Source: Candidatus Poribacteria bacterium (GTDB lineage: Bacteria > Poribacteria > WGA-4E > WGA-3G). Taken from it: a stretch of 64,000 nucleotides of DNA. Below the pieces are notes generated by a model that worked only from the letters and a program-made list of their open reading frames with translations, made no database searches and was not told the DNA's origin. Within the stretch, counting starts at the first letter, position 1, and the number at the start of each line of letters is the position of its first letter. Below, one piece after another: positions 5,373 through 56,544 of this stretch. The position numbers were made by a program, and so were the translations under genes. The stretch is taken from contig JAJDZB010000073.1 in the NCBI GenBank assembly GCA_022824835.1, forward strand, positions 23,933 through 87,932, written 5' to 3'.

Positions 5373-6347
5373 TCACTTGCTTAGGAAACAATCACCTATT
5401 TTTATCTGATAGCCGTTTACGAAATCCTTAGCATTCATAATTCTTTTTGTTGCTGGTTGTACTTGGATTATCTGAAGTACACCATCACCCGTTATGACAA
5501 ACATTTCGCTATTTGCGTTTATTATAATAGTTCCTGGTTGTCCAGACACTGATGCGTTGTTACTTATCTTATCGCTTTCATGTGGTAGAGATTCAGTGAT
5601 TTTGAGTCTTATATCATTACGAAAATAGGTATATGCCCCGGGCCAACCGGCTGTGCCTCTAATTAGGTTAAAGATGGTGATAGCATCTTCGTGCCAATTA
5701 ATGTGTCCAATATCTTTTGTTAGACGTGGTGCATACGTTGCTTTAACGCGTCCTTCTATCAAAATCTGTGGTTCTGCTTTAGGTGGTTTGCCTTTAGGTA
5801 ATTCACTTAGTGTTTCTATGAGCAGTTTTGCACCAATGTTAGCTAAAGCATCGTGTAATGTTTCAGCGGTATCATCTGAGTTGATGGGTATGCGTTCCTT
5901 ACAGATTATATCACCCGTGTCTTCACCTGCATCCAATAGCATGAGCGAGATACCGGTTTCTTTTTCTCCATTGATGAGTGCCCACTGAATAGGGGCTGCC
6001 CCTCTGTATTTTGGTAGAAGGGACGGATGCAAGTTTATGACGCCGCACGGTGGAATGTCTAATACCGATTGCGGTAAAAGTTGTCCAAACGCTGCAACAA
6101 CGATCACATCTAAAATTAACTCGTTTAGTATTTTTACAAATGCTGGATCTCTAACTTTTTCTGGTTGATATATCTTTAAGTTGTTTGCTGATGCAATTTT
6201 CTTTATTGGAGATGGACTTAATCTTTTACCTCTTCCACTGGGGCGATCAGGTTGTGTCACGACGCCGATGATATCGTAATTGTGAGTCACAAGTTGTTCC
6301 AATGCTGGAATGGCAAATTCACTTGTACCCATAAAGAGAATACGCAT
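5373..6347 (-). CDS. fmt: Methionyl-tRNA formyltransferase
   Basis: MRILFMGTSEFA, VVTQPDRPSGRGK, INLHPSLLPKYRGAAPIQWA. Confidence 0.95.
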   Translation of the reverse strand: MRILFMGTSEFAIPALEQLVTHNYDIIGVVTQPDRPSGRGKRLSPSPIKKIASANNLKIYQPEKVRDPAFVKILNELILDVIVVAAFGQLLPQSVLDIPPCGVINLHPSLLPKYRGAAPIQWALINGEKETGISLMLLDAGEDTGDIICKERIPINSDDTAETLHDALANIGAKLLIETLSELPKGKPPKAEPQILIEGRVKATYAPRLTKDIGHINWHEDAITIFNLIRGTAGWPGAYTYFRNDIRLKITESLPHESDKISNNASVSGQPGTIIINANSEMFVITGDGVLQIIQVQPATKRIMNAKDFVNGYQIKIGDCFLSK

Positions 6348-6395
6348 ATATTATTTTACCCGTGTGCCAATTTGTGTAACTACACAGCAGAACTA

Positions 6396-7010
6396 TTAGA
6401 ACCGAATTTGTAATAATGGTATAACAAGACCTTCTGACGGACCTGTTCCTCCAATATTCAATTGATGGTTTTGCTGCATAAGATAAGGTTGTCCGATAAA
6501 TGTTGAGCCGATAAAATTTGAGGTATTATTCATCATTACATGTTGTGCGTTACTCGGTATGATCGCCAGAGGTCCTTCCGTTGGACTTCCTTCTTCAGTT
6601 GGCGGTGTCGGTTGTTTCCATTCAGGTATACTTGGTTCTGATGTATCTACATTTCGTGTATGCCACCAATCCCATATTCCGATAAAAAGCGATAATGATA
6701 CTGCACTTATTCCCATAGCTCTATAGTTTTTCTGTGTCAACACGGGTGCGATTTTATTGTCTTGTATCATCCTAACTGCCCGAACACCTAAATAGCTGTG
6801 AATTGCAGTGAATGGTAGTGAACTCAGGGTTATTATTTCAAATCGTCGTAAAGCACTTTCGTGATAATGCTCTTCCTGCTCATCGTGTGAATGTTCGGAT
6901 GGAGGTGAACTTGGTTGTTGTGCTTCAGCATGTGGAACGAACAAAATAATGGTTGATAGTACCATTACAACGAAATAACGCGCAAGTAGAGTTGAGTTAA
7001 TATTAAACAT
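6396..7010 (-). CDS. Hypothetical secreted/membrane protein
   Basis: Signal-like N-terminus, His/Glu-rich stretch, one internal hydrophobic helix, C-terminal aromatic residue (..LLQIRF). No recognisable family. Confidence 0.45.
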   Translation of the reverse strand: MFNINSTLLARYFVVMVLSTIILFVPHAEAQQPSSPPSEHSHDEQEEHYHESALRRFEIITLSSLPFTAIHSYLGVRAVRMIQDNKIAPVLTQKNYRAMGISAVSLSLFIGIWDWWHTRNVDTSEPSIPEWKQPTPPTEEGSPTEGPLAIIPSNAQHVMMNNTSNFIGSTFIGQPYLMQQNHQLNIGGTGPSEGLVIPLLQIRF

Positions 7011-7033: not shown

Positions 7034-7522
7034 TTATGTTTTGTTTTGCACTTTAAAAAGAAATACAATAAGCATGCCAGCACCGATACATACAGAGACG
7101 TCTGCGACGTTAAAAGTAGGCCAAAACAGTCTTTTACTTTCAATACCAAACTGCAAGAAATCCACAACTTCCCCTAAGAATATACGGTCAATGAAGTTTC
7201 CAATTGCACCGCCTAATAGAAAACCGAGTGCATATTGCATCCATCTACTGTTCTGGAATCTGAACGAATACCAGAAGATGAAGATTAGAGCTGCGACTGT
7301 GATGAGAATTAGAAATGTTCTCTGATCAGAGAGGATACCGAAAGCAGCACCAGGATTCCTATCGTGTCGTATATTGAAAAATCCGGGTATAACTGCAAAT
7401 CCATCTCCTCGATTGATGTTTTCCCGAATAATCCATTTAGAAACTACGTCAAGTAATAGCATCGGTATTGAAATGATGACTAAAGGTAGCATCTTTTTTG
7501 CATACTGAGACAGAGAAATCAC
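7034..7522 (-). CDS. lspA: Lipoprotein signal peptidase (signal peptidase II)
   Basis: DVVSKWII, NPGAAFGIL, FNVADVSVCIGAGMLI. GTG start at 7522; an alternative ATG at 7492 gives MLPLVII. Confidence 0.85.
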   Translation of the reverse strand: MISLSQYAKKMLPLVIISIPMLLLDVVSKWIIRENINRGDGFAVIPGFFNIRHDRNPGAAFGILSDQRTFLILITVAALIFIFWYSFRFQNSRWMQYALGFLLGGAIGNFIDRIFLGEVVDFLQFGIESKRLFWPTFNVADVSVCIGAGMLIVFLFKVQNKT

Positions 7523-7538
7523 TTTAAAAAATACCTAC

Positions 7539-10124
7539 TTATTTGTGTTTGGTCTGATGCGTTTTCTTCAAGGATTCCCATCTGCTTTTCGTGTCTCCTT
7601 GAGTGTTTATGTGTGAAAAATCAAACAACCTATTTTTGAATATACTACTCGTTGAATGTGTCTCTCCATGTATCTCTTCGGCTAAGAAAGGTTGTATTGG
7701 CGCAAGTCTCTGTAGAATAGCAGTTAACATACTTGATACAGTGATATATTTAGAGTCTACATTTTCATCAGTTATCTCGGTTTTAGATAGGTCAATATAA
7801 AAGAGGAGCTCAGATTGGCAAAAATCAAAGAGTAATTGCCATATCTTTGCGTAATCACTTACTTCGTAGTATGCTTCGATCTGTTGAATGTGTTCTCTGG
7901 TTACTGAGATTGCAAGCTTATCCTGTTCAAGTAAGATACTGGTTCTGTCGTCTTCATTTTCATCAGCGAGTGTTCTATGCTTATCTGATCCTGTTCTTTT
8001 TTTCAAATCTTTTAGGAAATTAGCAGCTTGATACAATGCATCTTTAAGTTGTCCATATTTGTTGTAATACTCTTTAATTAACGCTTCTAATTGTTGTTTT
8101 CCATTTCCTTTAATCGGCACTTCATGAATATCAGGTAGTATTGAGACATGTCGTATTACATCTGCTGGATATTCTTGTATGTGTTCTTCAAGCACCTCAG
8201 TTTCCCAAACATGTTCCGCAATATGATGTAACATAATATGCTTGAAGGGTTGGCTTTCTTTAGAGGGACGACTTAATTGCATTGCAGCAGAGAGGATACT
8301 CAATTCTCCTAACCATTTTAGAAATGTTGTTTTTGGTAAGAATATAACATTTCTTGAAGAATCAAGTATCGGTGTTTTAAAGTCAGAACTGTCAAGTGTT
8401 TGAAGTAGGTTTGAGAAATCGCTTTCAATATATGTTGATTCTTTTCTAAAGTCTTTTGAATGACAGTTGACACAGACTGTATCTGTAGGCAATAATTCTT
8501 CTACACTTAATCTGAACCAGTGTTCAGAGCCGCGACGAATTGAACTACGGACTGCTCTAAGGATCTTCTTATCTGTAATTAGATCGTTGCAGTTATCGCA
8601 TCGGAGTACAGGAAGCGGTACTCCCCATTGGCGTTGTGAGGATATGGGCATATCATTGATATTACGTATCTCATTTTGAATAGGGGTTTGTATGTCTTCA
8701 GGATAATGATCCCAATAATCTTGTGAAGTTGAGACTTCCCGAAGAACATTAGGTGACGGATTTGAGAAGAACCAATGGCGATAGGGCCGTGAGACTGATG
8801 TATTGTTGCAATGTTGACAGTGAAGCTGCTGTTTTTTTTCGTTTCTGGCATTAATCAAACATTCCCGTGTTTCTAACTCATCGCTGATAAATTGAATTGC
8901 ATTGAACAAATTTAAACCACATAGTATATCTGTTTCCTCTGTGAACCTGCCAGTTTCATCAAAGATTGGAATTATGGAAGAGGATGAAACAAATTGTTCG
9001 TTTATGAAATTTCCGATCTCTGGCATAGTTTTACATATAGTATAACTTAGCGAATGGTGTGCTGGATTCAACGGGATGATGCCTGATAACATTTCATTTT
9101 TTTCAGATTTCTCTTCAAGAGAAGCATTGACCGCCTCAGGTATAATGACGAATCTTAGGTCTGTTAAAGAAAAAAGCGGGTGTGTTAGACTGCAATCTCT
9201 TAGTTTTGAAGGATTTAATTTTGCGATGGGTTCAGGGAGTTCTGTGCGTTTCGAGTTAGGATGTGCGAATTTTTTTAGTTGTGGTTCAGAGAAAATGATG
9301 TACTGTTTTTCATACTTTGTCAACCAGAAAGGGACTTTTTCATAGATACCGATTGCTATCGTACCCGCGATTTTCCATAATTGCGATATGGGTAGATGCA
9401 CAGCAAAATAGACATCAGTGCCGAACTCCTCAAAACCGCTACTGAATGGAAACTTCACATAAGTAAATGCAATACTTTTCGTTAAGGGGATTGCTGTTTT
9501 TCCTGTTTCTAATGGTGAAAAACAGTTTGGACACCAATGGCTTAAACGTAGTTCGTCCTTCAGGTATTTTGAGTCTCGTAGTCTATCAAAGAAACTAAAT
9601 AGTTTCGTTTCGTGACGTGAGTCCATCGTTCTGTCAGAAGATGACCAATCAGCAAAGATGCCGAGATTTTTGAGTTTTTGCTGCTGCTTTTTGAGACGTT
9701 TCCCGTAAATCTGTCTACACTGCCTTCTAAAATTGATGATGTTGGCAGCTGATGAGATGTTCTCTTTGATGATGTGTGCTTCCACGCTAAATGGAAATGT
9801 TTCCCAAAGAGGCGTATAAGCCACTGTGTGTCCCCGCATCATTTCAGTCTTTAAGAATATGTCCTGATATATTTTCCGTCTGAGCGTATCAACGTTTAAG
9901 GTATCAACAGGTGTCGGCATTTCTCGTATGACATAAGTTGTTCTCTCAGAAGTTTTCTCATTAAAAGCGTAAACGTTCTGCGTTTTCCACAGTTTGAGTA
10001 TTTTCGATGCGATTGAACTCTCTTGTTTGTCTTGAAGTGATTCTACTGTGGATGTTGCTTTTTTAGGACTGTCTTTGGTTCTTTTTGAAGATGTCTTCTT
10101 TGCTTTACTCTTTACCTTATTCAT
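7539..10124 (-). CDS. Isoleucyl-tRNA synthetase-like protein lacking the HIGH and KMSKS motifs (putative pseudo-synthetase)
   Basis: Collinear with IleRS by eye: HWCPNCFSPLE vs HWCxxCxSALAEAE; CQHC..RPYRHWF vs CWRCxTPIxxRATPQWF; SSQRQWGVPLP vs SRQRxWGVPxP; anticodon-domain helix YEVSDYAKIWQLLFDFCQSELLFYIDLSK. The HIGH position reads TLNVDT, and no KMSKS-like loop is present. Sits directly upstream of lspA. Confidence 0.75.
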   Translation of the reverse strand: MNKVKSKAKKTSSKRTKDSPKKATSTVESLQDKQESSIASKILKLWKTQNVYAFNEKTSERTTYVIREMPTPVDTLNVDTLRRKIYQDIFLKTEMMRGHTVAYTPLWETFPFSVEAHIIKENISSAANIINFRRQCRQIYGKRLKKQQQKLKNLGIFADWSSSDRTMDSRHETKLFSFFDRLRDSKYLKDELRLSHWCPNCFSPLETGKTAIPLTKSIAFTYVKFPFSSGFEEFGTDVYFAVHLPISQLWKIAGTIAIGIYEKVPFWLTKYEKQYIIFSEPQLKKFAHPNSKRTELPEPIAKLNPSKLRDCSLTHPLFSLTDLRFVIIPEAVNASLEEKSEKNEMLSGIIPLNPAHHSLSYTICKTMPEIGNFINEQFVSSSSIIPIFDETGRFTEETDILCGLNLFNAIQFISDELETRECLINARNEKKQQLHCQHCNNTSVSRPYRHWFFSNPSPNVLREVSTSQDYWDHYPEDIQTPIQNEIRNINDMPISSQRQWGVPLPVLRCDNCNDLITDKKILRAVRSSIRRGSEHWFRLSVEELLPTDTVCVNCHSKDFRKESTYIESDFSNLLQTLDSSDFKTPILDSSRNVIFLPKTTFLKWLGELSILSAAMQLSRPSKESQPFKHIMLHHIAEHVWETEVLEEHIQEYPADVIRHVSILPDIHEVPIKGNGKQQLEALIKEYYNKYGQLKDALYQAANFLKDLKKRTGSDKHRTLADENEDDRTSILLEQDKLAISVTREHIQQIEAYYEVSDYAKIWQLLFDFCQSELLFYIDLSKTEITDENVDSKYITVSSMLTAILQRLAPIQPFLAEEIHGETHSTSSIFKNRLFDFSHINTQGDTKSRWESLKKTHQTKHK

Positions 10125-10202: not shown

Positions 10203-10469
10203 TCACACGATCAGTAATCTATTTAATACTATCAGGAGAAAGATTAATACCATTGGTGAAAAATCGATTCCAAGATTCCCAGTTAAAGGTCTGATTATAT
10301 TTCTAATAGGTTGTAGTAGCGGATCAACCAATTGACTGGTTATCGTATAGATTTTATGGATGGTTGAATTCCTTGTGGCAAACACTATCCAAGATAGAAA
10401 CACATTTGCAATTACAATAAAAACATAAATTTCAATCACCCAACTAAGAAAAGTCGCAATTATAGGCAT
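10203..10469 (-). CDS. yggT: YggT family membrane protein
   Basis: 88 aa with two TM segments, NVFLSWI..LVDPLLQPIRNIIRP..IDFSPMV pattern. Adjacent to proC and yggS. Confidence 0.75.
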   Translation of the reverse strand: MPIIATFLSWVIEIYVFIVIANVFLSWIVFATRNSTIHKIYTITSQLVDPLLQPIRNIIRPLTGNLGIDFSPMVLIFLLIVLNRLLIV

Positions 10470-10487
10470 TATGGTTTCATACCTTTC

Positions 10488-11306
10488 TCATTCATCGGAA
10501 TCGAGTTGTTTTGCTCGTTCTGTTGCAGCGATTATTGCTCTTGCAAGTGTTGCGCGTAAACCACCGTTTTCGAGTTCATGAAGACCTGCGGCGGTTGTGC
10601 CTCCAGGTGTTGTCACGCGATTTTTCAAAATTGCTGGATGTTCCAGCGATTCTGAAAGCATTGTCGCTGCACCTAATACTGTATGGATTGCCAACGTCTG
10701 TGCCTCCTGGCGAGGTAAGCCGACATGCACACCTGCATCTGCTAACGCCTCTATGAAAAGCGCAACATAAGCCGGTCCGCTACCACTGAGACCTGTGACA
10801 GCATTTAGATGCCGTTCCTCCATGACTAACGTAGTACCACAACTCCTAAATAACTCCTGAGCAATGTTGATATGTTCCGTATTTGCAGCAGAACCTGCAG
10901 TTAAAACTGAGATCGCTTCTCCAACAGATGCTGCGATATTTGGCATGACACGCACAATAGGAGGTACATTCACACAATACGATTCTAATGTCTTAGTCGT
11001 TACACCCGCAGCAATACTAACAATCCATTGTGTAGGTGTAAGACTCTTGGCGACTTGTGGGAGGATTCTTGGAACAGCTACAGGCGGAACTGCACAAAGG
11101 ACTACTTCTGTGTTATCTAAGAGTTCTTCTATATTGGATGCAGCGTTAACTTTTAGATCATCACAGAGTTGCTTTACCAGGGCAGTGTCTATATCAGTAA
11201 TCCATATCTGTTGAGGTGTTAAGGTAGAATCTACGATACTGTTAACGATGATTCCACCCATTTTCCCAACGCCAATTACTCCTAATTTTAGGTTGTCTAA
11301 CACCAT
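10488..11306 (-). CDS. proC: Pyrroline-5-carboxylate reductase
   Basis: LGVIGVGKMGG Rossmann motif, VRVMPNIAASVGE, VTTPGGTTAAGL. Confidence 0.9.
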   Translation of the reverse strand: MVLDNLKLGVIGVGKMGGIIVNSIVDSTLTPQQIWITDIDTALVKQLCDDLKVNAASNIEELLDNTEVVLCAVPPVAVPRILPQVAKSLTPTQWIVSIAAGVTTKTLESYCVNVPPIVRVMPNIAASVGEAISVLTAGSAANTEHINIAQELFRSCGTTLVMEERHLNAVTGLSGSGPAYVALFIEALADAGVHVGLPRQEAQTLAIHTVLGAATMLSESLEHPAILKNRVTTPGGTTAAGLHELENGGLRATLARAIIAATERAKQLDSDE

Positions 11307-11401
11307 CTATCTCCTATAAAACTTGGGCCTATAAAACTTGGGCTGCCAAACCTTAATCCACAGTGCTCAGTATTATACAGTTTGGTCATTTTTTATTTTA
11401 T

Positions 11402-12121
11402 TTATGCAAAAATTGCGCGACCTATCCTAACAAGGTTTGCCCCTTCTTCGATTGCAACTTCAAAATCACCTGTCATACCCATAGATAGGTAACGCATATC
11501 TACATTGGGAGAATCTTCAATTTTTAGATTGTCAGCAAGATTTCTTAATGCTTCAAAAGCGGGTCGGTTTTCCTCTGGATCTGTAGTGAATTTACCCATA
11601 GTCATTAACCCACACACCCGCACATTGGCGTAATTGATAGATTTTTCAATTATATTTGGCACTTCCTTAGAATCTAATCCGTATTTACTTTTTTCTCCAG
11701 TTGTATTTACTTGTAGTAAAATATCTGTCACGTTTTCCTGTTCTATGGAACGTTTGGAAATCTCTTCTACTAACCGCAAACTATCGACCGAATGAATCAA
11801 TGAAAACATGCTCAGAGCGGGTTTTACTTTGTTTCTTTGTAGATGTCCAATTAGATGCCACGCAAAGGTTCTATTAGATTCAGGTGCATTCAATAGATTC
11901 CAAGGTAGAGAATTGACAGGTTCAAATTTCTGCTGTGCTTCCTGAATACGATTTTCGGCTATGATAGTCGCGCCTGCATTAAGTACAGTCTCTATATCTG
12001 TTACTGATACCCCTTTGGTTACAACGACAAGTTGAATTGATTCGGGTGAACGTCCGCTTTTTTGTGCAGCTTCTGCTATCCGTTGCTTTACATGTGCAAA
12101 GTTTTCGGCAATCCGATTCAA
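11402..12121 (-). CDS. yggS: YggS family pyridoxal-phosphate homeostasis protein
   Basis: LVVVTKGVS, WHLIGHLQRNKVK, LSMGMTGDFEVAIEEGANLVRIGRAIF. TTG start. Confidence 0.85.
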   Translation of the reverse strand: MNRIAENFAHVKQRIAEAAQKSGRSPESIQLVVVTKGVSVTDIETVLNAGATIIAENRIQEAQQKFEPVNSLPWNLLNAPESNRTFAWHLIGHLQRNKVKPALSMFSLIHSVDSLRLVEEISKRSIEQENVTDILLQVNTTGEKSKYGLDSKEVPNIIEKSINYANVRVCGLMTMGKFTTDPEENRPAFEALRNLADNLKIEDSPNVDMRYLSMGMTGDFEVAIEEGANLVRIGRAIFA

Positions 12122-24452: not shown

Positions 24453-24581
24453 CGCAAATTCTTTAGTAAGTGAGAAAACATAATAAAAAGTACATTCAAA
24501 AACGGGTTTTGCAGAATGCGCGTTTGGCATTCCGCAGGAAGGCGAAACAACGCTTCTGTAAAAATACAAACATTCGTTAGA

Positions 24582-25242
24582 TTATTGTTCAGTATCACGA
24601 TACGGATTACCTCTTACTCTTTCAAGTGCGGCTAAGTATGCTTTGCCAAGTTTCTCCAGTGCAGATTTGGTGAGCTGACTCACCCGTCCTTTTGACACTT
24701 CCAAGATTTCGGCTATCTCTGCTCCATTAAACTCTTGGAAAAACTTCATTTCAATCACGGCGCGTTCCTTTTGTGTCAGTCTATTCATTAATTTCGGCAA
24801 GTGCTTTCTTAAGGTTTCAATTTCTATCTGGTGTGTCACGGTTTCTGCTACATCCTCTATTGCACCCGCTTGTGCGGTTAAGTTATCAACCAACGGATTA
24901 TGTTTACAGTTAGCGTCATCATCCATATCTTCTTGATGCGTAAAAGGACTCTGAAGCAATACTTTTTTACGTTCTGACCAGAGCCGAGTGCAGACACGCG
25001 CCTTAATGAAACGTAGTATAACTCGCGCCACTGGGGTGATCTGGGTCATACTTCGGTGTTTCTTCCAACACTGTCAAAAATGCAAGTTGACGCAAATCCT
25101 CTTTAAAACTTCTCAACTGTGCATTGTTGCCTACGGCACAATCGGCACAGTGGTGTATTGACGATTCTGCAGAAAGCGGATTTTGTGGAACAACATAGAA
25201 TGGACATTTGCCTCTGTTATGCGGACCTCTTTGTTCTGTCAT
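24582..25242 (-). pseudogene. Group-3 (FliA/WhiG-like) sigma-70 family factor, reading frame split by a single-nucleotide frameshift near 25003-25010
   Basis: ORF 25003..25242 ends ..LRQLAFLTVLEETPKYDPDHPSGASYTTFH* (region 2.1/2.2-like). ORF 24582..25049 continues in another frame with IKARVCTRLW (region 2.3-like) and the region 4 HTH LTQKERAVIEMKFF..EIAEILEVSKGRVSQLTKSALEKL. The two frames overlap at ACG TTT CAT TAA GGC. Confidence 0.6.
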
Positions 25243-25274
25243 CGGTTTTACCTCCTAACAATAAAGTGAACCGA

Positions 25275-25380
25275 TAAAGGATATTAGCTAAATGTATTTA
25301 ATTAATATATGCGTTTCATCTAAAATTCTTTAGCTTTTTTTACATAGAGATCCACGATGTGGTACTATCCGACTTTCGGA
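25275..25380. repeat. Exact 106-bp direct repeat, copy B (upstream of the sigma gene)
   Basis: Identical to 21761-21866, offset 3514 bp. Confidence 0.95.
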
Positions 25381-25903
25381 ATGCTACAAAGTCATGAACT
25401 CTTTCCACAACACTTAGAAACGATCCAGACAGGAACACATATCCTGGCAACAACAGCTGTCGCTATCTGTCTTCTTCGCGGCGTGCCGGTGCTAATGGAG
25501 GTATAACATACATCCAAACCGCATGCACATACAACACACCAACCGCAAAACACCATTCAAGCATTGAAGAGACGTAGACTCTCTTTTTTAGGGATCTCTT
25601 TGTTTAACGAATGGGTGTTGCTAAAACTTTACACACCTATAGGTGTCATTTTAGTGAAAAACGTTAGTGGGTTTGATACACCTTTCGCCCCTCTGGGGCT
25701 TGCTGTTGGTTGGATCACTGTGGACTATACACCTTTCGCCTCTCTGAGGCTTTGGAAAATCACAAATCAGCACCCGCTGAATGCCATACGCGCATTCATA
25801 GCGTTGATTTCGGTGCGGAAGGTATGGGGTAAAATCGAATTTATATAGCCTGTCAACAAGAGGGAATATCCTTAAATTGACGCCTATGGTGGTTGTATAA
25901 AGA

Positions 25904-26090
25904 AGCACAATCAAGGATGAATGTGCTACAGCACAATCAGGATGTATGTTGTGTGGAGAGGGGTAATGGAGGATGAATGTTGTAGAAAGAGGCACAATCT
26001 AACAGAATGTGCTACAGTTCAAATACTGGGGCACAATCAAGGATGAATGTGCTACAGTTCAAATACTGGGCACAATCTAACAGAATGTCT
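25904..26090. repeat. Array of GCACAATC-N-AATGTGCTACA(GTTCAAATACTGG) units
   Basis: Five units, two of them about 40 bp and almost identical (25991-26030 and 26031-26070). Confidence 0.85.
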
Positions 26091-26230
26091 ATTATTGTGG
26101 CGAAGGTATTGTCTTGCAGACAATATATAAACAGTGATATAATTTTCAAATCTCTTACAATCGTCCAAGACTATTTAAGGTCGGCAGTGAAGTAAAAACT
26201 GTGGCATCGTATCAGGATCGGAGTAGCATA

Positions 26231-51066: not shown

Positions 51067-53685
51067 TCATTTTACAATAGAGAATTTACCTGCGCTTCGG
51101 TATCCGTTTCCATCGCTTGCCATGTAGAAGTATAGTCCGGTACAGACCTTTTCACCATTTTGATTGGTACAATCCCAATTCGACGCATTCTCTATTACCT
51201 TAATTAAGTTACCCGTTACATCATAGATTTCAACTTTTAGACCTTTTGGGTAAAATGAAAGGTGTTGGTTCCCAAGAGTTGGACGAATTGGATTTGGTGC
51301 AACTACTACTTTGCGGTTCGTACTGTTCTGTAGATAACTGAAAGATTGTCCTTGCCAGATTCTGTTACCGGTTTTACCTGATAGGTTCTTTCCAGAAATC
51401 TTATATAAGTAAATCCCGGTAGCAGGGAATCCGTTTGTCTGTAGAGTCCCACGCCATTTTGTAGGAGACACCTGGAATAAGGTGATGTTATAGGTATCCC
51501 TATTTGGTGCTTCTACTGATAACATCGGCGCACTTTGAAGTGCATGCGTGCTTGTCACCTCAACATGCCACTCGCCTGTGCCGTGTTGTTGTGTATTGAT
51601 GAAAAACGATGGTGCTTGGTTTGCTGATTCTATGGCCGGTGAAAAGCTATCTGGAGCGATACTCGGTGTTCCCATAATTCCTATAGCGTCCGCCGGCACA
51701 ACTGCATAGTAATAGTGTACCATGTCTTCAGGGTCAACGTCCTGGAAAACTGTTCTATCTTCAAACTGCCCCTGTTGTGGGATTTGCGTCAATGAGACGC
51801 GTCCGACAACAGTGATGTCGTCTTCAGCAATGCCATCTCCGTTGCGATCAACGGCTGCGAGCACTTCAGCATCGGATTGGAAGGTTTGCGGTTCATCTGT
51901 TTCACTATTTAAGACGTATCGTTTTCTGACGATAGCGACTTCCTGAATACCCGTTGGGTCATCAACAGTCCAATTGAGCAAAGCACCAGAAGTGCCTTGT
52001 GATACTTGGACGTTTGCGAGTTGTCCTTTCGGTGGTGCGCCAGCAACAAAACTGATAGAACCACCAGTAGTACCACCCGGAACTACCACCTGTTCAACAT
52101 CAGCGTGCATATTGATAAGAATAAGTGTAATTTCTTTAATCACGCCACCGAAATCATTGAATGTGATTTGTGCTTCCTGAGACTTATGATATGTGAAGGC
52201 TTCTCTGATTTCAATTTTATTGTTCTGTTTCTTTACAATGAATTTTGCAGCCCACCCACGTAATCCTGTGCCATTGAGTCTGTTAAGTTCGCTCTGGATA
52301 TTGTTTCTGTCTTCAATTGTCAGAGCACTCATATCATAAGGCGCAAGGTCAGCACCATCAATTTTGATTGCGAATTCTGGCATGACGCCTTGTGGTCGGA
52401 ATACGATATAACGACACGAAAAGTGTTCTGGCATCGCCTCAGAATCGAAGTGCGTACCAATCGGATATTGACTGTGAACATCGTTTGGGTGGATTGCGAC
52501 AGTAGGGAACCTTTCAGCGTTTCTATACCCTTGTATATCAACAGTCGTATTCGCGCGTGTATACGTAAAATAATTCCATACAGTAAAAGTCTTGAAAGCT
52601 TCTGCGAGGGTTGTACCGTTGTCTATAAAGACATCATAAAAGTTACCGAATTCGCGATAACTGCCATCTGTCGTATTGGTATAAAACTGGCGTATGATGT
52701 CATAGCCGAATCGTTCTGCCATATAGAGCGACCAGATGACTGACCCGTATTCATGGTCACCGATTCTACTCTCAAGGGAAATATCGGGTATATTAAACCA
52801 TCGGCGTAGTTGATGGATGTAATAGTTATAAGCGTTAGTCTCGGTCGGTTCATCGGGATCAGGGAGTGTGTCTCCATCGTCAACGACACCGCCATCATAA
52901 GTCATCACCTCAATCCACGTAGCAGATGATTCCATGAACCAGGTTGGCATATAGGCGTTATATGCAAACTGTATCCCGTGCAGGAATTCATGTGCGCATG
53001 TGGTTTCAAGATATCGTATCCCCTCTGCTTTTCCGACATAATCGTAGATACGTGAGTTGATCATGAAATAGGGAGCGATTGTCAACGCAGTGGATAGTAC
53101 CCGTCCTTCAAACCAGTCTGCTGTTGTGATACCGAGTGCTGGGAAGGTAAACAGGTATACATCCATTTTATGGTCGCCGCCGTTCTGTGCTGCCCAAAAA
53201 TCCATGTAAGGTTTCTTGAACCCCATGAGATCAATTTGAACGTGATAGGCGCGTTCCATCGCATCAGCACAGAGATCGATATAATCAGGGACTCCGTTAC
53301 GGGGATGAAAGTCTTCAAGCGGCGGTGCGTGGGGTCCTCTGCGTGTATAGTGGAGTTTGAAATGCGGTGTGTTAAAGTGTTCTGTAAGGACAATATCACC
53401 GAAGAAACTTCCCGGAAGTCCTGGACGGAGGAAAACCGGTTTTAATTCTTGCCGTAGTGTTGATGGGATGTTTTGCCAGTTTTTCGCGACCGTTACAAAA
53501 CTATCCGTAGCACATTCCATGACGTCGCCAGGTGAATATCTCGGTTTGAGATTAGTGAACTTTCGTACATTTTGAATGGCACTTTGAAGGTCTGCATCTG
53601 GAGGGAGTGCATAACTGATACACGAAATAGTTACTGTAAATAGGAGGACAGCAGTAAAATATGTATTTTTGGCGATTTTTTTCAT
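51067..53685 (-). CDS. Secreted HEXXH metalloprotease-like protein with a T9SS/FlgD-Ig-like C-terminal domain
   Basis: Signal peptide. TCAHEFLHGIQFAY..WFMESSATWIE (HEXXH plus a downstream Glu). C-terminal LKVEIYDVTGNLIKVI...GLYFYMA..GKFSIVK beta-sandwich sorting-domain pattern. Confidence 0.65.
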   Translation of the reverse strand: MKKIAKNTYFTAVLLFTVTISCISYALPPDADLQSAIQNVRKFTNLKPRYSPGDVMECATDSFVTVAKNWQNIPSTLRQELKPVFLRPGLPGSFFGDIVLTEHFNTPHFKLHYTRRGPHAPPLEDFHPRNGVPDYIDLCADAMERAYHVQIDLMGFKKPYMDFWAAQNGGDHKMDVYLFTFPALGITTADWFEGRVLSTALTIAPYFMINSRIYDYVGKAEGIRYLETTCAHEFLHGIQFAYNAYMPTWFMESSATWIEVMTYDGGVVDDGDTLPDPDEPTETNAYNYYIHQLRRWFNIPDISLESRIGDHEYGSVIWSLYMAERFGYDIIRQFYTNTTDGSYREFGNFYDVFIDNGTTLAEAFKTFTVWNYFTYTRANTTVDIQGYRNAERFPTVAIHPNDVHSQYPIGTHFDSEAMPEHFSCRYIVFRPQGVMPEFAIKIDGADLAPYDMSALTIEDRNNIQSELNRLNGTGLRGWAAKFIVKKQNNKIEIREAFTYHKSQEAQITFNDFGGVIKEITLILINMHADVEQVVVPGGTTGGSISFVAGAPPKGQLANVQVSQGTSGALLNWTVDDPTGIQEVAIVRKRYVLNSETDEPQTFQSDAEVLAAVDRNGDGIAEDDITVVGRVSLTQIPQQGQFEDRTVFQDVDPEDMVHYYYAVVPADAIGIMGTPSIAPDSFSPAIESANQAPSFFINTQQHGTGEWHVEVTSTHALQSAPMLSVEAPNRDTYNITLFQVSPTKWRGTLQTNGFPATGIYLYKISGKNLSGKTGNRIWQGQSFSYLQNSTNRKVVVAPNPIRPTLGNQHLSFYPKGLKVEIYDVTGNLIKVIENASNWDCTNQNGEKVCTGLYFYMASDGNGYRSAGKFSIVK

Positions 53686-54015: not shown

Positions 54016-56544
54016 TTATTTCCGCAATAACATTTTCCGGGTTGCAGTAAAATCTCCAGTGGATAACGTGCAAAAATACAAACCGCTTGCAACAGGTTCG
54101 CCAGAATCGTTGCGTCCATCCCAATATGCTGCACGATCCTTGTTGTAATAAGTGCCAGCAGGTTGATTGCCTAATTCTATCGTCCTTATTTTGTGACCGT
54201 TCATATCATATATTGATACGGTTACATCAGTAGTAGACTCTAACTGATAAGGTATCCACGTTTCTGGATTAAAGGGGTTCGGATAGTTTTCAAGCAAACG
54301 TGTTTGGGTTGGGTTCAACACTTTGACAAACTGTTGCAGGATCGCAATTCCTTTTCTTACAGTAACATCCCTATTCGGTAATTGTTCTGCTTTCTTAATC
54401 CAACGGTTTACTGTTTCTGCATCAAGTTGTGCAATCTGATGTGGGTGTAAGGGGGCAGCATCAGAATTAGTATCTAACGCATTGACAACTAACAGCAGGT
54501 CAATAACGTTTACTTCTCCGTCTCTATTGACATCTGGGTTAGGAAATACATCGCCGATGATAGTTTTTCCAAAGTTCACAGCAACAAGCACAAGATCACT
54601 TATATCCACTATGCCATCCCCGTTTATATCAGTGCGATTCTCAACTGATGTGGATGCACCCGCTTTTAGCAAGAAATCATGCAGTGTGATATTGCCATAG
54701 ACGTCAATAATCAGTAAAGTTATAGGATTGTATGGAAAACGTGTCAAAGAAGTAATATCAAAATGTACGGTGCTGCTTATTGCCTCTATTTTCTGACAAC
54801 TCTGTAGTTTAGTACCTGTAGCAGGATCATTGCCGGTAGTTTGAACATGAAGCTGAACTTGATGTATCCCATCCAGATCAGTGATCTGAAATAGAATCGT
54901 ATGGTTTTCTGCATTTGATGGGTACACCTCAGAAGTTAACATTTGAACAGTTGTGGGTTCGTTAAATGCGGTTTGTTCTATATTGAAGAACCGATTTACG
55001 TTAAACCATTCTGTTGCACACATTGAGAACCTGTCAGCGTCAGCACCGTAGGACATGATGTATTTCTCGTCTCTGAAATCATGTGTTAAACCGAATGCGT
55101 GTCCAAGTTCATGTGCGACGACATATTTACCGACATCACCATCAAAGCACTTACCTGAAGCGGGAATAAGAGCATATCCACCGCGTGAGAATACCTGGTG
55201 TTGATTTCCGATCCATAGTGTTCCACCTATACCACAGGCGCTGTTCCTTTCAATTGCTTCAGCACCAGTTTCTACGAAGATAAGATTAATGTGTTTATTT
55301 TCTTCAAATTGGGTTGATAGCTCATTTGTAATCTTCTTGCTTGTATCGGCATAATAGTATGCGTCATTAAACCTTCCGCGAGTTTGATGAACGAGAACGG
55401 ATCCGTTTTCACCTGATTCGAAAGTAAATGTTTTGCGTGCAAATCCGTTTGCTTCCATCTGATCAGCATAGAAAGTTTGCACGTCTTTTAGCAGATGATC
55501 CAGCTTTGTTCTTATATCGGGTTGAGGGGAACGGTCGTTTGGGACGAAGTAGATAATTCTCACCAATTCTTCTATAGACGTCTGATATGCAGTGACATCC
55601 CAGAGCCGAAGTGTTCCATCATCACCACCACTGATTAATGATGTGTTGTCCGGTGAAAATGATGCGGAATTTACCCATCCTTTGTGTCCCAAGAATGTCG
55701 CGATATTAGCACCATCTGTGATGTTCCATAGGTTGATTGCTTCGTAATCTGTCGTTGCAAGTGTCATACCGTCTGTTGAGAAATTGAGGTCTGTCACTGT
55801 TGCTTTGGTAGGCAATGTGCCGATATGTTCCCAATTGGATAGTTTCCACAATTTCACACCACTGTTATATCCAGCACTTGCCAATATTTGATTATCTGGA
55901 GAAAACTGCAAGGCGGAAATCAGATCAGTATCTGCCTGAAATTCTGCTACTTCCAGGCGGTTTCGAACATTTATGATTCTCACTTTACCACGGACATCTC
56001 CCATCGCAAGAGTTCTCCCATCATGAGAGAAGGCTAATGCGATTACCCATTCGTCATGTCTGAAGGTTATCAATTCTCTGTATGTATGTATATCCCATAG
56101 TTTTACATGATACCCTGCTGTAGCAAACATCTGTCCGTTTGGAGAGAATGAAATTTCCTTTATCTGCGATTGTGCGAAATCTGTCGTATGTCTGAGAGTT
56201 ACAATTTGGCTCTGTTTCTCAATATCCCACAATTTGATCGTATAGTCATCGCTGCCACTGACAAGTTTTTTGCCATCAGGAGAAAATGCGATTGCGTTGA
56301 TAGTTTTAGTGTGATTTCCAAGTATGGTAACTGTATCTTCCTCAAGGTCCCATAGCTTTATTGCATGTCCTCCACCTGCGCTTGCTATTAACTTAGAATT
56401 TACGGGTGAATATGCAACGGCTTGTACAACCCCGCCGTGCGTAATGGATGTGTGGTCTTGCGCAGCAGTGATATAGGGAGCAGATGTCAAAATGAAGAGA
56501 ATGAGAAAACACTGTATTCTTTGCATGCCTGTATTCTTTAACAT
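54016..56544 (-). CDS. Mosaic secreted protein: WD40 beta-propeller, metzincin protease, dockerin-like repeats and a T9SS type A C-terminal sorting domain
   Basis: Seven WD-like blades (IKLWD, VKLWD, VKLWK, LRLWD). VAHELGHAFGLTHDF..YIMSY (HExxHxxGxxHD plus Met-turn). DINGDGIVDISDLVLV and DVNRDGEVNVIDLLLV. C-terminal NYPNPFNPETWIPYQL..VSIYDMNG..GLYFCTL. Confidence 0.75.
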   Translation of the reverse strand: MLKNTGMQRIQCFLILFILTSAPYITAAQDHTSITHGGVVQAVAYSPVNSKLIASAGGGHAIKLWDLEEDTVTILGNHTKTINAIAFSPDGKKLVSGSDDYTIKLWDIEKQSQIVTLRHTTDFAQSQIKEISFSPNGQMFATAGYHVKLWDIHTYRELITFRHDEWVIALAFSHDGRTLAMGDVRGKVRIINVRNRLEVAEFQADTDLISALQFSPDNQILASAGYNSGVKLWKLSNWEHIGTLPTKATVTDLNFSTDGMTLATTDYEAINLWNITDGANIATFLGHKGWVNSASFSPDNTSLISGGDDGTLRLWDVTAYQTSIEELVRIIYFVPNDRSPQPDIRTKLDHLLKDVQTFYADQMEANGFARKTFTFESGENGSVLVHQTRGRFNDAYYYADTSKKITNELSTQFEENKHINLIFVETGAEAIERNSACGIGGTLWIGNQHQVFSRGGYALIPASGKCFDGDVGKYVVAHELGHAFGLTHDFRDEKYIMSYGADADRFSMCATEWFNVNRFFNIEQTAFNEPTTVQMLTSEVYPSNAENHTILFQITDLDGIHQVQLHVQTTGNDPATGTKLQSCQKIEAISSTVHFDITSLTRFPYNPITLLIIDVYGNITLHDFLLKAGASTSVENRTDINGDGIVDISDLVLVAVNFGKTIIGDVFPNPDVNRDGEVNVIDLLLVVNALDTNSDAAPLHPHQIAQLDAETVNRWIKKAEQLPNRDVTVRKGIAILQQFVKVLNPTQTRLLENYPNPFNPETWIPYQLESTTDVTVSIYDMNGHKIRTIELGNQPAGTYYNKDRAAYWDGRNDSGEPVASGLYFCTLSTGDFTATRKMLLRK

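What the first reader, a model, noticed from the sequence alone, without database searches (positions are those of the whole stretch)
7539..10124. Intact IleRS homolog with both class I catalytic motifs erased, sitting in the ancestral ileS slot
**Homology.** The 861-aa ORF is collinear with bacterial IleRS.
- It keeps the CP-domain zinc knuckles WCPNC and CQHC, plus two further CxxC pairs (CDNC, CVNC).
- It keeps SSQRQWGVPLP (compare SRQRxWGVP).
- It keeps the anticodon-domain helix ..YEVSDYAKIWQLLFDFCQSELLFYIDLSK.

**What is lost.**
- Where IleRS has P-x-x-N-G-x-x-HIGH it reads PTPVDTLNVDTLRRK.
- GWDCHGLP has become LWETFPFS.
- The region before EYPADVIRHVSIL (compare KLGADILRLW) has no KMSKS-like loop.
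- The CP1 editing Thr-rich peptide is not recognisable.
- GTGxVHxAPxHGxxD has decayed to GIIPLNPAHHSLS.

**Context.** A Lys/Ser-rich N-terminal extension (KVKSKAKKTSSKRTKDSPKK) has been added. The gene order yggS-proC-yggT-[this]-lspA is the conserved ileS-lspA neighbourhood, as in the Bacillus ylm-divIVA-ileS-lspA region.

**Interpretation.** An uninterrupted 2.6 kb ORF that keeps its structural zinc sites but loses catalysis looks like neofunctionalisation into a tRNA-binding or regulatory pseudo-synthetase, not decay. This may have followed displacement by a second ileS elsewhere. I know of no described IleRS pseudoenzyme of this kind.
Basis: partly seen in the sequence, partly recalled or inferred. 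Interest (0 to 1): 0.85.

Follow-up and report, generated by a model that had tools for sequence, protein, structure and literature searches.

The report
Conserved dead IleRS in Poribacteria
Sponge-associated Poribacteria all keep, in the usual chromosomal position of the isoleucine-tRNA synthetase gene, an intact copy that has lost every residue needed to charge or proofread tRNA, so this essential enzyme has apparently been recycled for an unknown non-catalytic job.

Summary
Window 7539-10124 (-) encodes an intact 861-aa type-1 IleRS homolog. HIGH, GWDxHGLP, WFDSG, GxDQ, KMSKS, the editing Thr-rich peptide and the editing Asp are all replaced.

- The C-terminal anticodon-reading Zn domain is absent.
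- The YRKIRNT stem-contact motif is absent.
- There is a new basic, disordered N-terminal tail.

The gene is not a one-off and is not decaying:
- At least 287 species-level genomes carry it, and the best 80 hits are all Poribacteria.
- It is a single ORF in 79 of 81 loci.
- dN/dS is 0.17, within the range of neighbouring housekeeping genes.
- The replacement residues are themselves invariant.

It always sits in the classical yggS-proC-yggT/divIVA-[ileS]-lspA slot. Deeper-branching relatives in the same slot show less-derived stages.

I conclude it is the ancestral ileS, converted in place into a selected pseudoenzyme. Its function is unknown. My best guess is RNA or protein binding rather than canonical tRNA-Ile recognition.

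Its existence is therefore inferred.

I found no published description of such a protein.

The parts
7539..10124 (-). Whole gene: 861-aa degenerate type-1 IleRS homolog ('pseudo-IleRS')
   Evidence: Intact ORF. Pfam PF00133 and PF08264. TIGR00392 at 180.8 bits, far below the 621.4 cutoff. hhalign against canonical IleRS gives E = 4e-77. AF2 and Foldseek match IleRS structures.
10020..10124 (-). New basic, disordered N-terminal tail (residues 1-35, MNKVKSKAKKTSSKRTKDSPKK...)
   Evidence: pLDDT is about 30. Net charge is +7 over the first 40 residues, which is also the family median. The tail is absent from deep-branching degenerate forms and from canonical IleRS. dN/dS is 0.66, so composition is conserved rather than sequence.
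9873..9917 (-). Former HIGH region (PTPVDTLNVDTLRRK); HIGH now reads NVDT
   Evidence: Alignment to 8c9e. In the family columns, H1 has become T/S/N, G has become D/N and H4 has become T.
9780..9812 (-). Former GWDxHGLP motif (PLWETFPFSVE); W107, E108, T109, P111 and E115 are invariant in the family
   Evidence: The alpha-amino-binding Asp is Glu in 118 of 118 core members.
8970..9521 (-). CP1 (editing-derived) domain. The Thr-rich peptide now reads PISQLWKIAGTI (9357-9392), and GTGxVH..HGxxD now reads LSGIIPLNPAHHSLSY (9042-9089)
   Evidence: All four editing Thr residues are replaced, and the editing Asp is Ser in 118 of 118 members. The domain is modelled with pLDDT 75-93. dN/dS is 0.14.
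9522..9536 (-). Zn site 1, first knuckle (WCPNC); its partner HCQHC lies at 8808-8822
   Evidence: C198, C201, C436 and C439 are invariant in 61 aligned members. They align with canonical C187/C190 and C401/C404.
8463..8603 (-). Zn site 2 insertion (RCDNC...VCVNC), the most conserved stretch of the family
   Evidence: C509, C512, C551 and C554 are invariant. In the CP-core/Zn module, 41% of columns are at least 90% conserved. dN/dS is 0.12.
8610..8642 (-). Retained class Ia core motif SSQRQWGVPLP (canonical ISRQRxWGVPIP)
8175..8243 (-). Former KMSKS region (KHIMLHHIAEHVWETEVLEEHIQ); the hairpin is deleted and the sequence varies within the family
   Evidence: The column for the second Ser of KMSKS is a gap in 118 of 118 members.
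7623..7934 (-). Helical anticodon-binding domain, retained but the least constrained module. The protein ends 27 residues later, with no C-terminal junction or Zn-finger domain
   Evidence: PF08264 at 5.2e-12. dN/dS is 0.30. Only 13% of columns are conserved. The C-terminal tail has 42-66 residues and no CxxC, against about 160 residues with two CxxC pairs in canonical IleRS.
7034..7522 (-). lspA (signal peptidase II), 16 nt downstream. This is the hallmark neighbour of ileS
   Evidence: PF01252 at 8.9e-42. Adjacent to the pseudo-IleRS gene in 78 of 81 loci. Canonical ileS-lspA pairs are seen in L086, L097 and L098.
10203..12121 (-). Upstream genes yggS (11402-12121), proC (10488-11306) and yggT (10203-10469)
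   Evidence: Pfam hits. Conserved in 79-80 of 81 loci.
5373..7010 (-). Downstream conserved genes: a hypothetical membrane protein (6396-7010) and fmt (5373-6347)
   Evidence: Conserved in 77 of 81 loci. An unannotated gene of 150-190 aa also follows lspA in the deep-branching loci. It has no Pfam or PADLOC hit.

Best explanation
This gene is the in-place descendant of the ancestral type-1 ileS gene of the Poribacteria lineage.

**What it has lost.**
- The ATP site: HIGH, GxDQ and the KMSKS loop.
- Most of the isoleucine site.
- The hydrolytic editing site.
- The tRNA stem-contact motif.
- The C-terminal anticodon-reading zinc domain.

It therefore cannot make or proofread Ile-tRNA.

**What it has kept.** It keeps the IleRS body: the Rossmann core, CP1, the CP core with two zinc sites, and the helical domain. 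This body has been held under purifying selection across the whole phylum, and the replacement residues in the former pockets are now invariant. It is therefore a pseudoenzyme with a selected, non-aminoacylating function.

**Most likely function.** I think it most likely acts as a binding or scaffold protein. It could bind RNA in a non-canonical way through the newly acquired basic, disordered N-terminal tail and the conserved basic Zn2 insertion. Alternatively, it could bind a protein partner.

**Shown.**
- Homology to IleRS.
- Loss of the motifs and of the C-terminal domain.
- Purifying selection.
- Phylum-wide distribution.
- Positional orthology with ileS.
- A stepwise series of less-derived forms in related lineages.

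**Inferred.**
- Lack of catalysis, which is deduced from sequence only.
- A functional IleRS encoded elsewhere in these genomes.
- The binding or scaffold role.
For: **Homology and fold.**

**Losses.**
- Every catalytic and editing column is replaced in all 118 core members.
- The KMSKS hairpin is deleted, YRKIRNT is replaced and the C-terminal domain is absent.

**Selection.**
- The gene is a single ORF in 79 of 81 loci.
- Median dN/dS is 0.17 over 138 genome pairs, against 0.11-0.24 for nine neighbouring genes.
- More than 100 columns are invariant across 61 members that are only 40-90% identical, including all 8 Zn cysteines and the new WET.P, PLNPAHH and LWEIAGT motifs.
- Constraint is strongest in the former catalytic, CP1 and CP-core parts.

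**Distribution.** At least 287 GTDB species genomes carry a relative. The best 80 are all Poribacteria, including many closed chromosomes with one copy each.

**Slot.**
- The order ylmD-yggS-proC-yggT-[x]-lspA-hyp-fmt-PASTA-rpe-rsmE is conserved.
- Deep-branching degenerate relatives sit in divIVA-[x]-lspA-(lgt)-(def)-fmt.
- Canonical ileS occupies the same place next to lspA in other bacteria.

**Series.**
- P0135 and P0126 keep the C-terminal Zn finger.
- The P0131 clade keeps the domain but not the cysteines.
- Deep-branching forms keep the alpha-amino Asp in 11 of 17 members and the editing Asp in 10 of 17.
- The core family has lost all of these and gained the basic N-tail.
Against: - No canonical ileS was found in any Poribacterial genome. 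The window, the +-10 kb flanks of 81 loci and three large protein searches gave none. The 'second ileS' therefore rests on the universal need for IleRS.
- No experiment or structural complex supports RNA or protein binding.
- The overall pI is near neutral (median 6.2), which is not typical of a dedicated nucleic-acid binder.
- The N-tail evolves fast (dN/dS 0.66).
- Invariant polar residues in the former pockets (E68, E108, T109, H356, S360) could equally mark a new ligand or catalytic site rather than a passive scaffold.
- The NJ tree that groups all slot-resident degenerate forms could be affected by long-branch attraction. Synteny supports the grouping independently.
Confidence: 0.6

Rival explanations
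1. The protein is a new enzyme or ligand sensor. The remodelled, invariant residues in the former synthetic and editing pockets would form a new active or ligand-binding site. It could be an aminoacyl-tRNA-dependent transferase, as cyclodipeptide synthases and SbzA are. It could also be an amino-acid sensor that regulates another protein, as HisZ does.
For: - The replacement residues are invariant rather than merely tolerated: E108, T109, P111, E251, P351, H356 and S360.
- Part of the amino-acid subsite survives: Pro46 and Trp558 (T. thermophilus numbering) are kept, and Asp85 is Glu in 118 of 118 members.
- The former catalytic half is the most constrained part of the protein.
- There are precedents for aaRS-derived enzymes and sensors.
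Against: - Trp518 and Gln554 of the Ile pocket are lost, and the position is variable.
- The gene is not in a biosynthetic cluster. It sits in a housekeeping operon.
- SbzA, the only known IleRS-derived transferase, keeps HYGH, AMSKA and the C-terminal tRNA-binding domain. All of these are absent here.
- Without the C-terminal domain and the stem-contact motif, productive binding of aa-tRNA-Ile is doubtful.
Confidence: 0.22
2. The gene is an operon hostage. It is kept only because transcription and translation through it are needed to express lspA and the downstream genes. The protein itself would have no function.
For: - The gene ends 16 nt before lspA here, and overlaps lspA in L002.
- There is no terminator-like site between the genes on the coding strand.
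- The ileS-lspA linkage is ancient.
Against: - This model predicts dN/dS near 1 with only stop codons avoided. The observed value is 0.17, with more than 100 invariant residues and 8 conserved Zn cysteines across sequences only 36-40% identical.
- In L001 an IS element separates the gene from yggT, and the gene is still intact.
Confidence: 0.03
3. The protein is still the organism's working IleRS, using a radically non-canonical active site. Alternatively, Poribacteria have no canonical IleRS at all.
For: - I could not find any canonical ileS in Poribacterial sequence.
- JGI annotation already calls these proteins 'isoleucyl-tRNA synthetase', so a missing canonical gene could have gone unnoticed.
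Against: - Every element known to bind ATP and stabilise the adenylation transition state in class I synthetases is gone, and the KMSKS loop is physically deleted.
- The anticodon-reading domain is absent.
- The protein diverges much faster than its housekeeping neighbours: 38% identity against 47-73% at the same depth. This is unlike a real IleRS.
Confidence: 0.03
4. The gene is a decaying pseudogene that happens to be intact in this genome.
For: Loss of all catalytic motifs and a low score against the ileS model.
Against: - The gene is intact in 79 of 81 genomes spanning the phylum.
- It is present in at least 287 species.
- dN/dS is 0.17.
- The AF2 model is confident.
Confidence: 0.01

Closest known systems
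LeuRS-I of Sulfolobaceae and LeuRS1/LeuRS2 of haloarchaea (class Ia synthetase duplicates with lost or very low aminoacylation)
   Same: - All are full-length class Ia synthetase homologs.
- All are kept under selection alongside (presumably) a working enzyme.
- All have a disrupted CP1 editing domain, an altered C-terminal domain and no known function (review PMC9437257).
   Different: - LeuRS-I still makes leucyl-adenylate and binds tRNA-Leu, so its ATP and amino-acid sites are intact. Here both signature motifs and the ATP site are erased.
- Those proteins are archaeal LeuRS duplicates. This is a bacterial IleRS sitting in the original ileS locus.
HisZ (HisRS-like regulatory subunit of ATP phosphoribosyltransferase)
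   Same: A bacterial synthetase paralog without adenylation activity, retained as a non-catalytic regulatory or binding protein.
   Different: - HisZ is class II and lacks the anticodon domain.
- HisZ has a known partner (HisG), a known ligand (His) and sits with his genes.
- No partner, ligand or pathway context is evident here.
[quoted passage not shown]
   Same: A catalytically dead synthetase paralog that is conserved across a large clade and works through binding.
   Different: - SLIMP is eukaryotic and class II.
- SLIMP heterodimerises with the active SerRS and retains tRNA-Ser binding.
- IleRS is monomeric, and the tRNA-recognition elements are lost here.
SbzA (IleRS-like aminoacyl-tRNA-dependent transferase of SB-203207/8 biosynthesis)
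   Same: The only described IleRS homolog with a non-translational role.
   Different: - SbzA keeps 61-HYGH-64 and 605-AMSKA-609, the editing domain, the C-terminal tRNA-binding domain and weak aminoacylation activity.
- SbzA lies in a biosynthetic gene cluster.
- None of these applies here.
IleRS1/IleRS2 (MupA, MupB) duplicate pairs
   Same: Two IleRS-family genes in one genome, which is inferred here.
   Different: In those pairs both copies are active enzymes, one of them antibiotic-resistant. Here the resident copy is inactive. It scores only 43-59 bits against the MupA and MupB models, whose cutoffs are 1900.

Membership tests
Isoleucine--tRNA ligase (functional IleRS; NCBIfam TIGR00392 equivalog) | Whole-protein score at or above the curated cutoff of the ileS model | tested here: not met
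   180.8 bits against a cutoff of 621.4.
Isoleucine--tRNA ligase (functional IleRS; NCBIfam TIGR00392 equivalog) | Class I signature HIGH (H-x-G-H/T) | tested here: not met
   The motif reads NVDT here. In the 118 core members H1 is T/S/N/K and G is D/N/S.
Isoleucine--tRNA ligase (functional IleRS; NCBIfam TIGR00392 equivalog) | Class I signature KMSKS loop | tested here: not met
   The hairpin is deleted and the remaining residues are acidic or variable.
Isoleucine--tRNA ligase (functional IleRS; NCBIfam TIGR00392 equivalog) | Isoleucine-binding residues (T. thermophilus Pro46, Asp85, Trp518, Gln554, Trp558; identities recalled from Nureki et al. 1998) | tested here: not met
   Pro46 and Trp558 are kept and Asp85 has become an invariant Glu, but Trp518 and Gln554 are lost.
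Isoleucine--tRNA ligase (functional IleRS; NCBIfam TIGR00392 equivalog) | CP1 editing site (Thr-rich peptide and GTGxVHxAPxHGxxD with the catalytic Asp) | tested here: not met
   All four Thr residues are replaced, and the Asp is Ser in 118 of 118 members.
Isoleucine--tRNA ligase (functional IleRS; NCBIfam TIGR00392 equivalog) | C-terminal junction and Zn-finger domain that reads the anticodon (type 1) | tested here: not met
   The family ends at about canonical position 820 of 936, with no CxxC in the tail.
Isoleucine--tRNA ligase (functional IleRS; NCBIfam TIGR00392 equivalog) | Aminoacylation of tRNA-Ile in vitro | not testable with these tools
   This needs a biochemical assay.
Class Ia synthetase superfamily (homology only: tRNA-synt_1 plus Anticodon_1 fold) | Significant profile and structural similarity over the Rossmann, CP and helical domains | tested here: met
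   Pfam hits above the gathering cutoff. hhalign E = 4e-77. Foldseek E = 1e-33 to IleRS.
Synthetase-derived pseudoenzymes or paralogs (HisZ, SLIMP, LeuRS-I kind) | Synthetase homolog lacking the residues required for aminoacylation | tested here: met
   (sequence-level inference).
Synthetase-derived pseudoenzymes or paralogs (HisZ, SLIMP, LeuRS-I kind) | Maintained by purifying selection across a clade | tested here: met
   dN/dS is 0.17, the gene is intact in 79 of 81 loci and at least 287 species carry it.
Synthetase-derived pseudoenzymes or paralogs (HisZ, SLIMP, LeuRS-I kind) | Coexists with an active synthetase of the same specificity in the same genome | tested here: inconclusive
   No canonical ileS was found in the sequence I could reach. 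Whole chromosomes could not be searched.
Synthetase-derived pseudoenzymes or paralogs (HisZ, SLIMP, LeuRS-I kind) | Defined non-translational partner or activity | not testable with these tools
   Nothing is evident from the gene context.
SbzA-type IleRS-like aa-tRNA-dependent transferase | Retained HYGH and xMSKx motifs that bind the acceptor substrate in the synthetic site | tested here: not met
   The motifs are absent here. SbzA has 61-HYGH-64 and 605-AMSKA-609.
SbzA-type IleRS-like aa-tRNA-dependent transferase | Located in a natural-product biosynthetic gene cluster | tested here: not met
   The neighbours are yggS, proC, yggT, lspA, fmt, a PASTA-domain gene, rpe and rsmE.
Decaying pseudogene | Frameshifts or stops in orthologues and dN/dS near 1 | tested here: not met
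   The gene is intact in 79 of 81 loci and dN/dS is 0.17.

The most novel reading that the evidence does not exclude
The invariant replacement residues in the former synthetic and editing pockets (E68, W-E-T-x-P 107-111, L-W-E-I-A-G-T, P-L-N-P-A-H-H, S360), together with the hyper-conserved Zn2 insertion, may form a new ligand-binding or catalytic centre. Poribacteria would then have turned their ancestral IleRS into a new enzyme or sensor, acting for example on an aminoacyl-tRNA, another RNA 3' end or an amino-acid-like metabolite. A still more radical variant, which I put at about 3%, is not excluded because no canonical ileS was found. In that variant this protein, or some non-IleRS route, supplies Ile-tRNA in a whole bacterial phylum.
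Probability: 0.2. Interest if true: 0.9.

Novelty: new variant of a known kind. Interest (0 to 1): 0.74.

Why it matters
- **A rare case for IleRS.** IleRS is regarded as one of the evolutionarily most stable synthetases and rarely has paralogs (PMC5388404). The only described non-translational IleRS homolog, SbzA, is still an active-site-competent enzyme.
- **An essential gene recycled in place.** Here an entire phylum has kept a completely de-catalysed IleRS in the original ileS locus. Related lineages preserve intermediate stages. This gives a natural time series of how an essential enzyme becomes a pseudoenzyme: the ATP site goes first, then the editing and amino-acid sites, then the anticodon-reading domain, and finally a basic tail is gained.
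- **A practical annotation problem.** JGI/IMG pipelines name these proteins 'isoleucyl-tRNA synthetase'. Metabolic reconstructions and completeness estimates for Poribacteria and relatives may therefore count a dead enzyme as IleRS.
- **A testable question.** The finding asks what selectable function the IleRS body has once catalysis and tRNA-Ile recognition are removed.

Tried and rejected
**1. Search for the canonical Poribacterial ileS. Every route failed.**
- No other synthetase lies among the large ORFs of the window.
- tblastn of an E. coli IleRS sequence against 1.69 Mb of Poribacterial loci hit only the degenerate gene.
- The best canonical representatives against the family profile came from Atribacterota, Elusimicrobiota, Planctomycetota, Melainabacteria and Calescibacterota.
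- A search seeded with the Atribacterota IleRS returned only Atribacterota and Firmicutes.
- A deep-branch profile search returned unnamed canonical IleRS proteins. These proved to come from hydrothermal MAGs and from ordinary ileS-lspA loci of other bacteria.

**2. The CDP-alcohol phosphatidyltransferase lead.**
- The same-sized gene follows canonical ileS in L082 and lies at the edge of the deep-branching Poribacterial contig L089.
- I fetched the upstream DNA by exact match. It encodes inositol-1-phosphate synthase, not ileS.

**3. Co-occurrence of the degenerate P0130/P0270 and the canonical P0452 in one assembly.**
- They come from different assemblies.

**4. RNA elements.**
- There is no regulatory RNA or T-box leader: no Rfam hit in the window.
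- There are no tRNA genes in the window.

**5. Defence-system association.**
- There is no PADLOC hit.

**6. The second Zn site as a marker of the parent lineage.**
- Most type-1 IleRS representatives have it, so it does not discriminate.

**7. Retention of the isoleucine subsite as evidence for an Ile sensor.**
- Only 2 of 5 residues are kept, plus one conservative change. I treat this as weak evidence.

**8. The GC-skew minimum near 25-26 kb as a replication origin.**
- The neighbouring genes are thiD, murJ, hisF and others, with no dnaA. It is just a switch of gene strand.

Full report
**1.
- Window 7539..10124 (minus strand) is an uninterrupted 861-codon ORF.
- The protein is unquestionably an IleRS homolog:
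  - Pfam tRNA-synt_1 scores 2.3e-27 and Anticodon_1 scores 5.2e-12.
  - The best NCBIfam model is ileS (TIGR00392), at 180.8 bits against a curated cutoff of 621.4.
  - The best solved relatives are type-1 IleRS from Priestia megaterium and S. aureus.
  - A profile of 61 family members aligns to a profile of 20 canonical type-1 IleRS with probability 100%, E = 4e-77 and 22% identity over 762 columns.
  - An AlphaFold2 model (pLDDT 79, pTM 0.78) finds IleRS structures first, with Foldseek E = 1e-33 to 1e-29.

**2. What is lost.**
- Column-by-column comparison shows these changes:
  - HIGH reads NVDT.
  - GWDxHGLP reads LWETFPFS.
  - WFDSG, the GxDQ segment and the KMSKS hairpin are gone. The hairpin is physically deleted.
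  - All four threonines of the editing peptide are replaced.
  - The editing Asp is Ser.
  - The roughly 110-residue C-terminal junction and Zn-finger domain, which reads the anticodon in type-1 IleRS, is absent.
  - The YRKIRNTxRF stem-contact motif is replaced.
  - A basic, disordered N-terminal tail has been added, with net charge +7 in 40 residues and pLDDT about 30.
- Only 59 of 193 columns that are at least 90% conserved in canonical IleRS keep their residue, and these are mostly Trp, Pro, Gly and Cys.
- Of the five isoleucine-binding residues known from T. thermophilus IleRS (my recollection of Nureki et al. 1998), Pro46 and Trp558 are kept, Asp85 is an invariant Glu, and Trp518 and Gln554 are lost.

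**3. It is a phylum-wide, selected gene.**
- A protein search returned at least 120 full-length relatives at 36-100% identity. Every named one is from Candidatus Poribacteria, with one copy per Mb-scale contig.
- A scan of one genome per GTDB species found 287 genomes encoding a relative. The best 80 are all Poribacteria, many of them closed chromosomes.
- The gene is a single uninterrupted ORF in 79 of 81 retrieved loci.
- Nei-Gojobori dN/dS over 138 genome pairs has a median of 0.17. Nine neighbouring housekeeping genes range from 0.11 to 0.24.
- Sixty-one members that are only 40-90% identical to the window protein share more than 100 invariant columns. These include all eight zinc-knuckle cysteines and the residues that replaced the catalytic motifs: W-E-T-x-P, P-L-N-P-A-H-H and L-W-E-I-A-G-T.
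- Constraint is strongest in the former catalytic half. dN/dS is 0.12-0.15, and 32-41% of columns are conserved in the Rossmann-N, CP1 and CP-core/Zn modules. It is weakest in the anticodon-binding domain (0.30 and 13%) and the N-tail (0.66).
- Over deep time the protein diverges faster than its neighbours: 38% identity against 47-73%.
- Both decay and the 'operon hostage' idea are therefore rejected.

**4. It sits in the ileS slot, and intermediates exist.**
- In Poribacteria the order ylmD-yggS-proC-yggT-[x]-lspA-hyp-fmt-PASTA-rpe-rsmE is nearly invariant.
- A profile search of 1.84 billion representative proteins revealed a graded tail of other IleRS-like proteins without HIGH or KMSKS.
- In a rough NJ tree the closest of these group with the window's family.
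- Wherever I could fetch their context, they lie in the same place:
  - P0131: tatAC-...-yggS-proC-yggT-[x]-lspA.
  - P0124: ylmD-yggS-proC-yggT-[x]-lspA.
  - P0133: proC-divIVA-[x]-lspA-hyp-fmt-PASTA-rpe.
  - P0130 and P0270: divIVA-[x]-lspA-hyp-def-fmt.
  - P0135: proC-yggT-divIVA-...-[x]-lspA-lgt-...-def-fmt.
- This matches the classical ylm-divIVA-ileS-lspA arrangement as I recall it from Firmicutes. Canonical ileS lies directly upstream of lspA in three unrelated loci fetched here.
- The deep-branching forms are less derived:
  - P0135 and P0126 keep the C-terminal Zn finger.
  - The P0131 clade keeps the domain without its cysteines.
  - 11 of 17 keep the alpha-amino Asp.
  - 10 of 17 keep the editing Asp.
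  - None has the basic tail.
- The order of events therefore appears to be: the ATP site was lost first, then the editing and amino-acid sites, then the anticodon-reading domain, and the basic N-tail arose in the core Poribacteria.

**5. What it most likely does.**
- The sequence rules out adenylation, tRNA charging and hydrolytic editing as far as sequence can.
- Canonical tRNA-Ile recognition is also unlikely. The two main tRNA-body and anticodon elements are gone, and the remaining helical domain is the least constrained part.
- What selection preserves is the Rossmann, CP1 and CP-core body with two zinc sites, a highly conserved basic Zn2 insertion and a basic tail.
- I therefore favour a non-catalytic binding or scaffold role, for RNA in a new mode or for a protein partner. 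My confidence in that specific step is modest.
- The main rival is that the invariant replacement residues mark a new ligand or catalytic site.
- The gene context gives no pathway clue. There is no Rfam element, tRNA gene or defence-system signature nearby, and the operon shows no internal terminator-like site.

**6. The missing piece.**
- I could not find a canonical ileS in Poribacteria.
- It is absent from the window and from the +-10 kb flanks of 81 loci.
- Searches seeded with the best canonical relatives returned other phyla only.
- One synteny lead proved false.
- These failures reflect top-120 output limits and short flanks, not a whole-genome search. The second ileS remains an inference from the universal requirement for IleRS.
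- JGI annotation already names the degenerate proteins 'isoleucyl-tRNA synthetase'. The question is therefore not trivial and should be settled on the closed chromosomes.

**7. Comparison with what is known.**
- Synthetase-derived non-catalytic proteins are an established kind: HisZ, SLIMP, and the LeuRS-I and LeuRS2 duplicates.
- The nearest analogues are the archaeal LeuRS duplicates, but LeuRS-I still forms adenylate and binds tRNA.
- The only described IleRS-derived protein with another role, SbzA, keeps HYGH and AMSKA, the C-terminal domain and weak charging activity, and sits in a biosynthetic cluster.
- Full-text searches found nothing on a degenerate IleRS or on Poribacterial IleRS.
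- I classify this as a new variant of a known kind: an IleRS pseudoenzyme, fixed in a whole phylum, in the ancestral locus, with surviving evolutionary intermediates.

**8. Verdict.**
The pseudoenzyme status, the selection and the ancestral slot are supported. The canonical tRNA-binding reading is weakened. The displacing ileS is not demonstrated.
- Interest is high for synthetase evolution and pseudoenzyme biology, tempered by the unknown function.

Noticed in passing
P0147, P0150, P0161, P0169, P0175-P0177, P0197, P0221, P0230, P0255, P0266 (no window coordinates): There is a second, apparently separate group of IleRS-like proteins that lack HIGH and KMSKS. Most keep the Ile-pocket Trp and Gln, the editing Thr and Asp residues and the C-terminal Zn finger. 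The named members are Armatimonadota MAGs. They could be editing-only or aa-tRNA-binding IleRS derivatives.
   Followed up: partly
P0142, P0196 (no window coordinates): These two IleRS-like proteins have lost HIGH and KMSKS but are otherwise near-canonical. They nest beside the canonical P0139 in the NJ tree, and P0142 is labelled as a Firmicutes MAG. This suggests a further independent loss of the ATP site.
   Followed up: no
window 6396-7010 (-); also L087 13476-13991, L089 13292-13762, L092 13147-13608, L094 9745-10305: A hypothetical protein of 150-200 aa, with a signal-peptide-like N-terminus and hydrophobic segments, always follows lspA. This holds in the core family (77 of 81 loci) and in the deep-branching loci. 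It has no Pfam or PADLOC hit.
   Followed up: partly
L001 9014-9937: An IS1595-family transposase is inserted between yggT and the degenerate IleRS gene in one 4.17-Mb Poribacteria contig. The gene stays intact, so it does not depend on read-through from yggT.
   Followed up: no
P0011, P0015, P0124, P0133, P0135 (JGI names); P0041, P0057, P0131 (NCBI names): JGI/IMG names these dead proteins 'isoleucyl-tRNA synthetase', while NCBI PGAP uses 'class I tRNA ligase family protein' or 'hypothetical protein'. Pathway-completeness calls that rely on the JGI names would wrongly count them as IleRS.
   Followed up: no
window 54016-56544 (-) and 51067-53685 (-): The window also encodes an 842-aa multi-WD40 beta-propeller protein, with eukaryote-like repeats as reported for Poribacteria, and an 872-aa protein with a weak type IX secretion C-terminal sorting-domain match, just below the Pfam cutoff.
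   Followed up: no
window ~24500-26200: The cumulative GC-skew minimum coincides with a switch from minus-strand to plus-strand genes. The flanking genes are thiD-like, murJ, hisF and others, with no dnaA, so nothing indicates a replication origin.
   Followed up: yes
L003 (JAJEJA010000019.1), L004 (CBDBFT010000001.1), L021 (OZ242325.1): The closest public relatives of the window organism are Poribacteria MAG p16x63bins.62 (96% identity for this protein) and two Mb-scale Poribacteria assemblies (89-90%). The window versus L003 pair shows an unusually high dN/dS of 0.53 at very low divergence (dS 0.036). This may simply be noise from the few substitutions involved.
   Followed up: no
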